The notes below the pieces were generated by a model that did not search any database, was not told the DNA's origin, and saw only the letters and a program-made list of their open reading frames with translations. This document shows positions 8,589-11,500 of a stretch of DNA of 52,996 nucleotides, piece by piece. Origin of the DNA: Myxococcota bacterium (GTDB lineage Bacteria; Myxococcota_A; Polyangia; Polyangiales; Sandaracinaceae); assembly GCA_036149055.1 (NCBI GenBank), contig JAYZQJ010000187.1, positions 1-52,996 on the forward strand, written 5' to 3'. The position numbers and the translations under genes are program-made. Each line of letters opens with the position of its first letter. Positions within the stretch are counted from its first letter, which is position 1.

Positions 8589-11500
8589 ATGATCCGCAGT
8601 CGCTTCACCCAGGGGATCGGCCTCGCCGTCACCCTCGCTTGCTTCGCGCTCCTGCCGAGCCACGGCCACGCCTACATCAACCAGGTCGACGGCACGGTCT
8701 TGCCCGTGTCGACCAACCTGCAGCAGTGCCTCGACTCGAGCACCGGCGAGGGGGTGTCCGGGGCGCTGAACGCCATCGCCGACGCGGCCGTGATTCCCGA
8801 GGCCTACCGCCCGGTCTTCGACGCGGTGAGCGGCCGCTACCGGGTGCGCTTCGTCGACATCGCCGAGGGCGCCGGCTTCCGGAACACCTTCGGCTGGTTC
8901 TGGGTGGGCGACGACGTCTCCAACCCGGCGAACCTCCGCCCCATCTTCGGCTGCCGCACCTACGGCACCTGCGCCTGCGGCTCCTGCTCCACCACCCGCA
9001 CGATCACCATCGACTTCGACACCCAGCCCGGCTTCTCGCCCGGCCGGCCGATCGGGTTCTGGCTGCGGACCCCCGAGCGGCTCGACGGCTCGCGCGAGAA
9101 CGGCTCCTTCCCGAGCGGCTGCCCCTTCGACGCCGGCTGCCAGCCGAGCGGGGCGAACGTCAACGATTCGTGCGGCTCCCGGTTCGACACCAACAACCGC
9201 ATCTACTTCACGAGCTCGGCGCTCAACGACGACGGCGACTACGTCCACTTCCTCGTCTACCGGAGCGTCACCCGGACCGACACCTTCTACTTCGGCTTCG
9301 AGGACCTCTTCCGCGGCGGCGACAACGACTTCGAGGACTTCCTCGGCCGCGCCACCGGGCTCGTCCCGGTCTGCGATCCGCAGCCGGAGACCTGCGACAA
9401 CGTCGACCAGGACTGCGACGGCGCGATCGACGAGGGCCTCACCCAGGCGTGCTCGACCGCCTGCGGCGCCGGGACCCGGACCTGCTCGGCCGGCTCCTTC
9501 GGGGCGTGCTCGGCCCGGGTGCCGGACCCGACCGAGACGCGCTGCGACGCGGGCGACGACGACTGCGACGGCGCGATCGACGAGGGCCTCACCCGCGCCT
9601 GCTCCAACTCGTGCGGCAGCGGCACCGAGGTGTGCCGGAGCGGCATGTACGCCGACTGCTCGGCGCCGACGCCGACCCTCGAGAGCTGCAACGGCGGCGA
9701 CGACGACTGCGACGGCCGCACCGACGAGGGCCTCACCCGCGCCTGCTCGAGCGCCTGCGGGAGCGGCACCGAGACCTGCACCGCGGGGACGTTCTCGGGC
9801 TGCACCGCGCCGACGCCCGGCGCCGAGACCTGCGACAACACCGACCAGGACTGCGACGGCCGGACCGACGAGGGCCTCACCCGCGCCTGCTCGAGCGCCT
9901 GCGGCACCGGCACCGAGGTCTGCATCTCGGGCAGCTTCGTCGGCTGCACCGCGCCGAGCGGCTCCATCGAGAGCTGCAACGACGTCGACGACGACTGCGA
10001 CGGGCGGGTGGACGAGGGCGTGACCCGCGCCTGCTCGACGAGCTGCGGGGTGGGCACCGAGACCTGCGTGGCCGGCGCGTTCGTCGGCTGCGACGCGCCC
10101 ACGCCGACCCCCGAGGTCTGCAACAACGTCGACGACGACTGCAACGGCATCATCGACGACGGCAACCCGGGCGGCGGCGCGGCCTGCCTGCCGCTCGACG
10201 ACGGCGGCTTCAGCGAGGCCGACGGCGGGGTGCCGGACGGCGGCGGCGACTTCTGTCTCGCCGGCCGGGTGGTCTGCGTCGGGGGTGAGCTCAGCTGCCG
10301 CGGCGCGTCCGGCACGACCCGCGAGGTCTGCAACTGCATGGACGACGACTGCGACGGCAACGTCGACGAGGACACCGGCGGCGATCTCTGCCCCGGCGGC
10401 GCCTGCGTGGACTGCCGCTGCGTCTCGCCCTGCGACGACGACGAGTTCCCCTGCCCGCCGGGCCGGGAGTGCGACCGGAGCTTCGCCGACCCGTCGATGG
10501 GCCTCATCGGCTACTGCGTGCCCGGCCGCTGCGCCGACGTGGAGTGCAGCGACGAGGAGGTCTGCAACCCGGACACCGGCGCGTGCGAGGATCTCTGCGC
10601 CGGGGTCGAGTGCGGCGCCGGCTTCGCCTGCGTGCGCGGCACCTGCGTGGAGGACACCTGCTACGGCCGCGGCTGCCCGACCGGCGAGCGCTGCCGCATG
10701 GGCGCCTGCGAGGCCGATCCCTGCGCCGGCGTGACCTGCGAGGGCGGCGCGTTCTGCCGCGAGGGCGAGTGCGAGGCGGTCTGCGCGCGCACCTGCGGCG
10801 AGGGCGAGGTCTGCCAGGGCGACGCCTGCGTGCCGGCCCCGTGCGGCGGCTGCGCGAGCGGCGAGAGCTGCGTGGAGGGCGCGTGCACGCCCGACGCGTG
10901 CGAGCCGGCCTGCGGCCGCGGGCGGATCTGCGAGGGCGACCAGTGCGTGGACGATCTCTGCCGCGGCGTGCGCTGCCCGGACGGCGCCACCTGCGCCGAG
11001 GGCGGGTGGTGCGTGCAGGACGAGATCGTGCCCCCGCGCGAGCCCGACTACGGCATCGCGAGCGGCGGCGGCTGCCAGTGCAGCGCCACCGGGAGCGGCC
11101 CGAGCGGCGGGCGCGGCGGCCTCGCGGCGGCGCTGCTCTTGCTGGGGCTGCTGCTCTGGCGGGCGCGCCCGCGGCTCCCCCGGCGCGGCGGGCGGGTCCT
11201 CGCCAGCGCGCTGGTGTTCTTCCTCGGCGGCTGCGACGTGGAGCCCTTCTGCTTCGAGGGCTGCGGGGACGAGGTCGACGCCGGGCCGCGCGACGCCGGC
11301 CGCCCCGACGCGCGCCCCGCCGACGGCTGCGTCGCGACCGGGGAGGAGACCTGCAACGAGACCGACGACGACTGCGACGGGCTCGTCGACGAGGGCTTCG
11401 ACCTGGCGACCGATCCGGGCAACTGCGGCGCGTGCGGGAGCGAGTGCGTGCTGCCGTTCGCGTTCCCGGCCTGCATGGAGGGCGCGTGCGCGATCGAGCG

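What the first reader, a model, noticed from the sequence alone, without database searches (positions are those of the whole stretch)
11061..11340. Candidate bacterial polyprotein: internal MYXO-CTERM signal joined in frame to a lipoprotein signal peptide
Seen in sequence: in the middle of the 1801-aa ORF (residues ~825-882) the frame reads SGGGCQCSATGSGPSGGRGG-LAAALLLLGLLLW-RARPRLPRRGGR-VLASALVFFLGG-C882-DVEPFCFEGCGDEVDAGPRDAGRPDA. There is no stop and no ATG at the junction; the only alternative start upstream of the second hydrophobic helix is a TTG inside the first TM helix with no evident RBS. Established knowledge: GGCxC + linker + TM helix + Arg cluster is the MYXO-CTERM sorting signal, which normally ends a protein. 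Basic N-region + hydrophobic stretch + LxG-C is a signal peptidase II lipobox, which normally starts one. The DAG-rich linker after C882 matches what follows the lipobox Cys in stand-alone lipoproteins of this window (20898, 30630, 52882). Inference: the Arg stretch serves both as the cytoplasmic tail of signal 1 and as the N-region of signal 2, making a helical hairpin. Processing by the MYXO-CTERM protease and by Lgt/LspA would release two separately anchored surface proteins in 1:1 ratio, one held by its C-end and one by its N-end. I know of no description of this dual-sorting arrangement.
Basis: partly seen in the sequence, partly recalled or inferred. Interest (0 to 1): 0.92.

Follow-up and report, generated by a model that had tools for sequence, protein, structure and literature searches.

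The report
Sorting tag fused to lipoprotein signal
One long gene of a marine myxobacterium joins a surface protein that keeps its end-of-protein anchoring tag to a lipoprotein that keeps its start-of-protein export signal, so the cell probably cuts the product into two separately anchored proteins, although no cutting has yet been shown.

Summary
The 1801-aa ORF (8589-13994, +) has, at residues 826-882, a MYXO-CTERM-type tag followed in frame by an Arg loop, a second hydrophobic helix and a lipobox Cys.

- **Not an artefact.** Contigs from three independent DNA runs bridge the junction without indels. GC3 stays at 0.98-1.0 across it.
- **Conserved.** The junction is in frame in 16 of 16 related loci that cover it, and in 51 of 120 listed database relatives.
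- **Origin.** Relatives exist as two adjacent genes. Gene 1 ends in a true terminal MYXO-CTERM whose TGA overlaps the ATG of a lipoprotein gene. That gene carries the same Cys-x-x-x-Pro-Phe/Tyr-Cys motif after its lipobox. The window's own genome holds both fused and split paralogues.
- **Recurrent.** Fused and split states changed at least twice on the tree. The genome has seven such hairpins in at least five unrelated proteins, and 16 other genomes of the phylum gave matches of the same kind (nine of ten checked are lipobox-type).
- **Untested.** Cutting by myxosortase and Lgt/LspA is inferred. The genes for these enzymes are present.

Internal MYXO-CTERM tags were noted in print in 2025 (MXAN_5598), without the lipobox pairing. 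This scan found the same arrangement earlier on other DNA. It is a new variant of a known kind.

The parts
8589..13994 (+). Whole fused ORF, 1801 aa plus stop
   Evidence: Full-length single-ORF orthologues of 1722-1996 aa in 13 related genomes.
8589..8672 (+). N-terminal signal peptide, signal-peptidase-I type by eye (MIRSRFTQGIGLAVTLACFALLPSHGHA)
   Evidence: Read from the translation. No predictor was run.
8673..11063 (+). N-terminal module: DUF4114 (residues 194-252), MopE-type Cys/Asp repeats and a Cys-rich stalk
   Evidence: Pfam PF13448 and PF11617. Stand-alone homologues of about 875 aa end in a terminal MYXO-CTERM.
11064..11168 (+). Internal MYXO-CTERM-type tag: signature GGGCQC (Cys829 at 11073-11075, Cys831 at 11079-11081), linker, helix 1 (Leu845-Trp857, 11121-11159), start of the Arg cluster
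   Evidence: TIGR03901 at 23.8 and 21.9 bits, cut-off 20, on fragments. 17 of 22 aligned hairpins hit the model. Gly7, Cys9, Cys11 and Arg38-40 are at least 90% conserved in alignment A1.
11160..11195 (+). Arg-rich loop RARPRLPRRGGR (residues 858-869): inferred cytoplasmic tail of the tag and n-region of the second signal
   Evidence: Sequence. Loop length varies from about 8 to 45 residues among orthologues, but the basic cluster is kept.
11196..11234 (+). Second hydrophobic segment VLASALVFFL plus lipobox L-G-G-C (Cys882 at 11232-11234)
   Evidence: The lipobox Cys is the only invariant column of A1. It is homologous to the +1 Cys of N-terminal lipoprotein signals in split and stand-alone relatives.
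11232..11264 (+). Conserved post-lipobox motif C-D-V-E-P-F-C-F-E-G-C
   Evidence: C-x-[VT]-[DE]-P-[FY]-C is kept in orthologues. It also follows the N-terminal lipobox of stand-alone lipoproteins P0126, P0128, P0131 and P0133.
11235..13991 (+). C-terminal module: Asp/Ala/Gly-rich linker, MopE-type repeats, BNR/sialidase-like propeller (Pfam BNR_2 at residues 1504-1739, 13098-13805)
   Evidence: Pfam. P0130 (940 aa) is a stand-alone lipoprotein with the same architecture.

Best explanation
The ORF is a real, conserved in-frame fusion of two once-adjacent, translationally coupled genes. Gene 1 encoded a secreted Cys-rich surface protein ending in a MYXO-CTERM tag. Gene 2 encoded a lipoprotein (MopE repeats plus a BNR propeller).

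Shown:
- The fusion is real and conserved.
- Both internal signals are homologous to terminal signals in split relatives.
- Both signature cysteines are kept.

Inferred mechanism:
1. The N-terminal signal peptide exports the first module.
2. Helix 1 stops transfer.
3. The Arg loop stays in the cytoplasm.
4. Helix 2 re-starts export, like a lipoprotein signal peptide.
5. Lgt then acylates Cys882 and LspA cuts before it, releasing an N-terminally lipidated C-module.
6. The N-module is then an ordinary MYXO-CTERM substrate. It is lipidated at Cys829 or Cys831, cut by myxosortase MrtX, and taken to the surface by the type II secretion system.
7. The hairpin of about 50 residues is discarded.

Either protease alone would separate the halves. 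The fused and split forms would therefore give the same two products.
For: Reality of the fusion:
- Three independent DNA runs bridge the junction with no indel.
- GC3 is continuous across it.

Conservation:
- The junction is in frame in 16 of 16 related loci that cover it. Thirteen of these are single ORFs of 1722-1996 aa.
- 51 of 120 listed long database relatives carry it, including a Sandaracinus amylolyticus protein.

Homology of both signals to terminal signals:
- In L050, L122 and L055 the split gene 1 ends ...GGxC..helix..RRRRR..GGAR-TGA, and that TGA overlaps the ATG of gene 2 (ATGA). Gene 2 reads M..lipobox C-xPEPYC. L051 shows the same layout in its translation only; one search did not find the boundary there.
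- At least 58 of 115 shorter N-half homologues end in a true terminal MYXO-CTERM.
- Stand-alone lipoproteins have the same motif straight after an N-terminal lipobox.
- The window's genome has a split paralogue pair at C76 beside fused paralogues at C128 and C227.

Retention of the signatures:
- The lipobox Cys is invariant. Gly7, Cys9, Cys11, Arg38-40 and Gly61 are at least 90% conserved in 22 hairpins from four unrelated protein families, while the loop varies freely.
- 17 of 22 hairpins hit TIGR03901.
- A family with no Pfam hit keeps the hairpin at the same aligned place at 27% identity over about 1400 aa, between two families of the phylum.

Interchangeability:
- On a 55-row tree of the C-module, the split label needs at least 2 changes.

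Enzymes:
- Myxosortase core 131.6 bits (cut-off 100), two LspA hits and several Lgt hits.

Literature:
- An internal MYXO-CTERM has been proposed to be processed. LPXTG and PGF-CTERM tags are cited as working in mid-protein positions (PMC11980579, passages read).
Against: - No experiment or read-out of cleavage or lipidation exists for this or any such hairpin.
- The TIGR03901 score is marginal (21.9-23.8 against 20), and the model did not report on the whole protein.
- Some orthologues have Glu, Asp, Pro, Asn or Tyr at lipobox position -2 (for example xEGC in G007, G016 and G021). This departs from the consensus I recall, [LVI][ASTVI][GAS]C.
- Cys882 could be kept for a disulphide within C-x-x-x-P-F-C-x-x-C rather than for lipidation.
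- A crude test found no excess of lipoprotein-type starts after terminal MYXO-CTERM ORFs in this genome: 10 of 91 against 573 of 6140 other ORFs. The fusions may therefore be tolerated accidents rather than selected partnerships.
- The tree was made by the quick method with a midpoint root.
- No signal-peptide predictor was available.
Confidence: 0.6

Rival explanations
1. Uncleaved hairpin anchor. The two hydrophobic segments are ordinary transmembrane helices. They hold one large two-domain protein in the inner membrane, with both domains in the periplasm, and neither signal is processed.
For: The topology is the same as in the best explanation, and no cleavage has been shown. The lipobox -2 position is atypical in some orthologues. 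The TIGR03901 score is marginal.
Against: Plain helices would not need the GGC(x)C signature, the Gly-Cys at the end of helix 2, or the basic cluster. These are invariant or at least 90% conserved across four unrelated families, and down to 27% identity. Split relatives deliver the two modules as separate proteins with terminal signals. States changed at least twice on the tree. That is easier to accept if the products are equivalent.
Confidence: 0.2
2. Only one of the two signals is used. In one version LspA frees the C-module as a lipoprotein while the N-module stays in the inner membrane on the hairpin remnant. In the other, MrtX frees the N-module while the C-module stays anchored by an uncut hairpin.
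For: Either cut alone separates the halves, so selection could keep just one. MrtX action on a tag that is followed by a second helix is untested.
Against: Both signatures are kept equally well in 22 hairpins. The unused one would be expected to decay.
Confidence: 0.15
3. The C-module is also, or only, made from an internal start codon, so the fused frame is incidental.
For: Some fused relatives keep a Met in the loop (L059, L126, L134, L139).
Against: The window gene has no ATG or GTG between the tag and helix 2. It has only a TTG inside helix 1. With no stop codon, the ribosome translating the N-module must read on in any case.
Confidence: 0.03
4. Assembly error or pseudogene: a lost stop or an indel peculiar to this assembly.
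For: One X2 contig shows an extra G behind 11120. Two relatives have frame breaks just upstream of the signature Cys: G006 in this family and G007 in the amidase family.
Against: Three independent runs agree with the window with 0 gaps. GC3 is continuous. The fused frame is conserved in dozens of genomes, including complete ones.
Confidence: 0.01

Closest known systems
MYXO-CTERM sorting tag with myxosortase MrtX and type II secretion (TIGR03901; TraA of Myxococcus xanthus; PMC11980579; bioRxiv 10.1101/2023.06.07.544157)
   Same: It has the same three parts: a Gly/Cys signature, a hydrophobic helix and an Arg cluster. The fragment passes the HMM cut-off. The genome has a myxosortase core domain. 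The protein has an N-terminal signal peptide.
   Different: The tag is not at the C-terminus; 940 more residues follow it. The cytoplasmic tail runs straight into a second export signal.
MXAN_5598 of M. xanthus: the published internal MYXO-CTERM, proposed as a gene fusion of an adhesin with a beta-barrel/OmpA protein (PMC11980579, Discussion passage read)
   Same: It is an internal tag arising from fusion of two neighbouring genes, and the N-terminal part is proposed to be still processed. A relative with that architecture (G118: adhesin-type domains, an internal tag, then OmpA) turned up in my census.
   Different: In the G118 relative the tag is followed by a signal-peptidase-I-type signal (…ALA-Q), not a lipobox. 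The paper does not mention a following signal or a lipobox, nor recurrence or split orthologues. The sequence of MXAN_5598 itself was not examined here.
Bacterial lipoprotein pathway (Lgt, LspA, Lnt) acting on N-terminal signal peptides with a lipobox
   Same: There is a basic n-region, a short hydrophobic h-region and L-x-G-C. The Cys is homologous to the +1 Cys of N-terminal lipoprotein signals in split and stand-alone relatives. Lgt and LspA genes are present.
   Different: The signal lies 857 residues inside the precursor and has no start codon of its own.
TraA/TraB of M. xanthus: a MYXO-CTERM protein and a partner whose ORFs overlap (as stated in PMC11980579)
   Same: The split relatives here are also a MYXO-CTERM gene whose stop overlaps the start of the next gene (ATGA or TGATG).
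   Different: The partner here is a lipoprotein with MopE repeats and a BNR or FGE-sulfatase-like domain. No role in outer-membrane exchange is implied.
FbcH cytochrome b/c1 precursor of Bradyrhizobium, cut at an internal signal peptide (recalled from memory; one search found no paper on it in the held library)
   Same: It is a bacterial membrane polyprotein in which an internal export signal is cleaved to give two proteins from one gene.
   Different: It uses signal peptidase I. No C-terminal sorting tag and no lipid anchors are involved.

Membership tests
MYXO-CTERM sorting domain (TIGR03901) | Match to the family HMM above its cut-off (20 bits) | tested here: met
   23.8 and 21.9 bits on excised fragments. 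Not reported on the whole protein at E up to 1. 17 of 22 hairpins match at E up to 0.01.
MYXO-CTERM sorting domain (TIGR03901) | Invariant Cys in a short Gly-rich signature, then a hydrophobic helix, then a basic cluster | tested here: met
   GGGC829QC831, LAAALLLLGLLLW, RARPRLPRR. Conserved in orthologues.
MYXO-CTERM sorting domain (TIGR03901) | Position at the extreme C-terminus of the protein | tested here: not met
   The tag ends near residue 866 of 1801. It is terminal in the split orthologues.
MYXO-CTERM sorting domain (TIGR03901) | Genome encodes a myxosortase (NF040914 core) | tested here: met
   G000:C167, 131.6 bits against a cut-off of 100.
MYXO-CTERM sorting domain (TIGR03901) | Cleavage and lipid attachment at the Cys, and surface display through the type II secretion system | not testable with these tools
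   Needs experiment.
Lipoprotein signal peptide (signal peptidase II substrate) | Basic n-region, hydrophobic h-region, and a lipobox ending in Cys | tested here: met
   RARPRLPRRGGR / VLASALVFFL / L-G-G-C882. The Cys is invariant and Gly at -1 is at least 90% conserved in A1. Position -2 is atypical in some orthologues. The consensus is recalled, and no predictor was run.
Lipoprotein signal peptide (signal peptidase II substrate) | Position at the N-terminus, beginning with the start codon | tested here: not met
   It is internal and has no start codon. It is N-terminal in split and stand-alone relatives.
Lipoprotein signal peptide (signal peptidase II substrate) | Lgt and LspA encoded in the genome | tested here: met
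   Two PF01252 hits and seven PF01790 hits (one locus gave two pieces), all over the cut-off.
Lipoprotein signal peptide (signal peptidase II substrate) | Diacylglyceryl modification and cleavage before the Cys | not testable with these tools
   Needs globomycin sensitivity, lipid labelling or mass spectrometry.
Internal MYXO-CTERM gene fusions (MXAN_5598 type, PMC11980579) | Two complete exported modules in one ORF, joined at an internal tag, with evidence of origin from two genes | tested here: met
   Split orthologues and paralogues have overlapping stop and start codons. Fused and split states alternate on the tree.

The most novel reading that the evidence does not exclude
The back-to-back MYXO-CTERM tag and lipoprotein signal may be a general, reusable polyprotein hinge of Myxococcota. 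Because both signals are removed at the membrane, a one-base indel at an ATGA stop/start overlap can fuse or split a gene pair without changing the two mature products. Lineages would then toggle freely between one gene and two. Fused forms would guarantee equimolar, co-localised delivery of a C-terminally lipidated and an N-terminally lipidated surface partner.
Probability: 0.45. Interest if true: 0.75.

Novelty: new variant of a known kind. Interest (0 to 1): 0.62.

Why it matters
If the hairpin is cut as proposed, it is a natural way for bacteria to make two differently lipid-anchored surface proteins from one translation product.

It would also explain why fused and split versions of the same pair coexist, even within one genome.

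It bears on annotation. Domain pipelines and signal-peptide predictors look for these signals only at protein ends. The MYXO-CTERM model did not report on the full-length protein here, and public records name these proteins only by their repeats. Surface proteomes of myxobacteria are therefore probably miscounted.

The hinge is about 50 residues long and self-contained. It could serve as a tool for co-display of two proteins.

It also gives a direct test of two open points: whether myxosortase and LspA accept internal substrates, and which enzyme lipidates the MYXO-CTERM cysteine.

Tried and rejected
- **Whole-protein NCBIfam scan.** It gave no MYXO-CTERM hit. Only excised fragments did.
- **Clean split orthologues among 40 relatives.** None were found. 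Two frame-broken genes have their breaks upstream of or at the signature Cys, not between the two signals: G006 in this family and G007 in the amidase family. I take these as indels or assembly errors, not as splits. True split forms came only from the wider collection.
- **G028 (L029).** The contig starts 161 nt upstream of the lipobox and shows no Gly/Cys signature. Its state is left unknown.
- **Are lipoprotein genes enriched after MYXO-CTERM genes?** A crude regex test gave 10 of 91 against 573 of 6140 control ORFs. There is no enrichment, so the idea is not supported.
- **RNA library X18.** It covers 10872-11108 and 11364-11600 but not the junction. It does not show transcription.
- **Literature searches.** 'internal lipobox' found 0 papers. 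'polyprotein' with 'lipobox' found 3 irrelevant papers. 'internal signal' with 'signal peptidase II' and 'fusion' found 1 irrelevant paper. 'fbcH' with 'polyprotein' found 1 irrelevant paper. 'MYXO-CTERM' with 'lipobox' found 6 papers, 4 listed; only the two passages already seen were checked, and neither describes the tandem.
- **Supplement.** Table S1 of PMC11980579 is held only as a legend. The sequence of MXAN_5598 was not seen.
- **Not done.** No structure prediction or complex prediction was run; neither would bear on cleavage.
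Full report
**1. The observation**

The window (73% G+C) holds an ORF at 8589-13994 (+) of 1801 aa.

- a Gly/Cys signature GGGC829-Q-C831
- a 13-residue linker
- a hydrophobic stretch, LAAALLLLGLLLW
- an Arg-rich stretch, RARPRLPRRGGR
- a second hydrophobic stretch, VLASALVFFL
- L-G-G-C882, then DVEPFCFEGC and an Asp/Ala/Gly-rich linker

There is no stop and no ATG. The in-frame TTG lies inside helix 1, and an in-frame GTG lies inside helix 2.

The NCBIfam MYXO-CTERM model (TIGR03901) scores 23.8 and 21.9 bits on excised fragments, against a cut-off of 20. It was not reported on the whole protein.

Pfam finds DUF4114 and 11 MopE-type repeats along the protein, and a BNR propeller near the C-terminus. 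The N-terminus looks like a signal-peptidase-I signal by eye.

**2. Not an artefact**

- GC3 is 0.97-1.0 in every 60-codon window across the junction.
- Seventeen public runs from several studies hold at least half of the sampled words of 10600-11800.
- Contigs of three independent DNA runs bridge the junction with no gap: X2 and X3 cover 10800-11381, and X8 covers 10855-11290.
- One other contig in X2 has an extra G behind 11120. That bin also collects other organisms' contigs.

**3. Conservation in orthologues**

A 300-aa query centred on the junction matched without stops in related genomes of several genera. I fetched 19 loci:

- 13 carry one ORF of 1722-1996 aa that aligns to nearly the whole protein.
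- 2 (G037, G025) have frame breaks elsewhere in the gene.
- 1 (G006) breaks about 25 codons upstream of the signature. Both signals stay together in the second frame.
- 3 are cut by contig ends.

So the junction is in frame in 16 of 16 loci that cover it.

In the alignments the signature, the basic cluster, the second hydrophobic stretch, Gly-Cys and C-x-[VT]-[DE]-P-[FY]-C are kept. The loop varies from about 8 to 45 residues.

In the large protein collection, 51 of the 120 listed long relatives carry the same internal hairpin. The script flagged 47 and I added 4 by eye. They include a Sandaracinus amylolyticus protein named only 'vWA domain-containing protein'.

**4. Where it came from**

- **Stand-alone C-halves.** Shorter relatives of the C-half are lipoproteins whose N-terminal signal ends in a lipobox Cys followed at once by the same motif. 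Examples are P0126, P0128, P0131 and P0133. P0130 has the related motif C-D-N-D-P-Y-C and the same MopE plus BNR architecture.
- **Stand-alone N-halves.** At least 58 of 115 shorter relatives of the N-half end in a true terminal MYXO-CTERM. Many are about 875 aa and align over 92-99% of the N-half.
- **Split gene pairs.** In four public MAG loci (L050, L051, L122, L055) the two are adjacent genes. Gene 1 ends ...GGxC..helix..RRRRR..GGAR-TGA. In L050, L122 and L055 the TGA overlaps the ATG of the lipoprotein gene as ATGA, and a GGGAGGTG Shine-Dalgarno sequence is encoded in the tail of gene 1. L051 shows the same layout in its translation only; one search did not find the boundary there.
- **A one-base route to fusion.** Gene 2 sits one base out of frame with gene 1. 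A single small indel would therefore fuse the two and remove the stop.
- **Relic start codons.** Several fused relatives keep a Met in the loop (L059, L126, L134, L139).
- **Both states in one genome.** The window's own genome has fused paralogues at C128 (3121 aa) and C227 (2208 aa). It also has a split pair at C76, where ...RILAAGGCMCRV..RRRRS-TGA overlaps ATG-RRALCLLALLAAPFTAGC-EVDPFC.

**5. Fused and split forms interconvert**

I built a tree of 55 C-module rows: 44 fused, 5 split and 6 of unknown state. Identical rows were dropped beforehand. It used the quick IQ-TREE method with a midpoint root. The split label needs at least 2 changes:

- A split clade of four is sister to a fused pair.
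- Another split row branches deeper.
- Fused Kofleriaceae rows lie on the other side of the midpoint.

**6. The hinge is not special to this family**

In this genome I found seven such in-frame hairpins:

- the window gene and its paralogues at C128 and C227
- an Amidase_3 protein joined to a PD40-repeat module (C215)
- an M23 peptidase with CWB2 repeats (C14)
- a phospholipase-C-like protein (C160)
- a 1376-aa protein with no Pfam hit (C125)

The amidase fusion is in frame in 8 of 9 related loci, including two complete genomes. One of the eight, G023, is flagged unpublished. The ninth, G007, is frame-broken at the signature.

The C125 protein aligns over about 1400 aa at 27% identity with a protein of a complete genome from another family of the phylum. 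The hairpin is at the same aligned place.

I built a profile from 22 hairpins (A1) and searched 151 genomes of the phylum with it:

- 25 of the 150 listed matches run from the signature to the lipobox without a stop. They lie in 17 genomes, and 6 of the 25 are in the window's own genome, which helped build the profile.
- I inspected 10 of the other 19. Nine are lipobox-type and one is signal-peptidase-I-type.
- Three further loci show a stop between the two signals.
- The signal-peptidase-I-type protein of G118 has adhesin-type domains before the tag and OmpA after it. That is the architecture published for MXAN_5598.

**7. Mechanism**

Shown:
- The fusion is real and conserved.
- Both internal signals are homologous to terminal ones.
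- The signature residues are kept.
- The genome encodes a myxosortase core (131.6 bits), two LspA and several Lgt homologues.

Inferred:
- The hairpin topology.
- Lipidation and cutting at Cys882 by Lgt and LspA.
- Lipidation and cutting at Cys829 or Cys831 by the MYXO-CTERM pathway.
- Loss of the hairpin peptide.

Either cut alone would separate the halves. The strongest argument for processing is that plain membrane helices would not need either cysteine signature. Yet the lipobox Cys is invariant, and Gly7, Cys9, Cys11, Arg38-40 and Gly61 are at least 90% conserved across four unrelated families, while the loop drifts.

Points against:
- There is no experimental evidence.
- The HMM score is marginal.
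- Lipobox position -2 is atypical in some orthologues.
- Cys882 could have a structural role.
- There is no excess of lipoprotein-type starts after MYXO-CTERM genes in a crude test: 10 of 91 against 573 of 6140.

**8. What is known**

PMC11980579 (mBio 2025; passages read) makes three relevant points:

- MXAN_5598 may be a gene fusion whose N-terminal part is still processed.
- LPXTG and PGF-CTERM tags are cited as functional in mid-protein positions.

It mentions a lipobox only when discussing Lgt. The Haft preprint does not contain 'internal' or 'lipoprotein'. 'Internal MYXO-CTERM' occurs in that one mBio paper only. Searches for an internal lipobox or a lipobox polyprotein found nothing relevant.

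Earlier notes of this scan describe the same hinge in eight other windows of other genomes. They agree with my census, but I did not re-examine their DNA.

**9. Verdict**

The feature is real, conserved and recurrent. It is a new variant of a known kind: an internal MYXO-CTERM tag paired with a lipoprotein signal.

This window adds four things:
- clean split orthologues with an ATGA overlap
- fused and split paralogues in one genome
- repeated changes of state on a tree
- seven hinges in one genome

The proposed cutting into two lipid-anchored proteins is plausible, at about 0.6, and has not been tested.

Noticed in passing
G000:C125 (L155:5136-9263, -) and G053 (L156:3735-8039, -): A protein family of 1376-1435 aa with no Pfam hit. 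Members align over about 1400 aa at 27% identity between two families of the phylum. Both keep the internal tag-plus-lipobox hairpin at the same place, and both seem to begin with a lipoprotein-type signal as well. The N-module might therefore be lipid-anchored at both ends.
   Followed up: partly
L050, L122, L055 near locus position 5950-5990; G000:C76 near 27382: In split pairs the Shine-Dalgarno sequence of the lipoprotein gene (GGGAGGTG or GGAGGAGGAG) is encoded inside the cytoplasmic tail of the MYXO-CTERM gene. This may explain the recurrent ...GGAR or ...RRRRS ends of many terminal MYXO-CTERM proteins.
   Followed up: partly
L028 (G006) and L049 (G007): Two independent frame breaks lie just upstream of, or at, the Gly/Cys signature of a hairpin, in two different protein families. 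They may be indel errors in G+C-rich runs, or real disruptions.
   Followed up: no
L157:3104-7390 (-), G118: A 1429-aa protein with DUF11, DUF3344 and TSP3 domains, an internal MYXO-CTERM, a signal-peptidase-I-type signal (…ALA-Q) and a C-terminal OmpA domain. This is the architecture published for MXAN_5598. The next gene downstream has a Wzy_C (O-antigen ligase) domain.
   Followed up: partly
alignment A1, rows 4 and 13: Two of the 22 hairpin fragments also match NF058595, 'lipo-invert putative C-terminal anchoring domain', at E about 5e-4. I do not know this model. The name suggests a C-terminal tag seen as an inverted lipoprotein signal.
   Followed up: no
window 20898 (+), 30630 (+), 52882 (-), and also 36164, 38952, 44225 (+), 49486, 18586, 15354 (-): The window is rich in predicted lipoproteins. 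Several have Asp/Ala/Gly-rich linkers and Cys-rich modules after the lipobox Cys.
   Followed up: partly
window 8319-14141 (-): An antisense open frame of 1940 aa overlaps the whole gene. The + frame, not this one, passed the GC3 filter, so it looks like the usual by-product of 73% G+C rather than a gene.
   Followed up: no
window 11120: One contig of run X2 carries an extra G behind 11120, at depth 30.6 of 119. That bin also collects contigs of other organisms. Three other contigs agree with the window.
   Followed up: no
whole protein P0001: The MYXO-CTERM model reports on the excised 47-65-aa fragments but not on the 1801-aa or 869-aa proteins. Routine annotation will therefore miss internal tags. 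Public names for the relatives are 'MopE-related', 'DUF4114' and 'vWA domain-containing'.
   Followed up: yes
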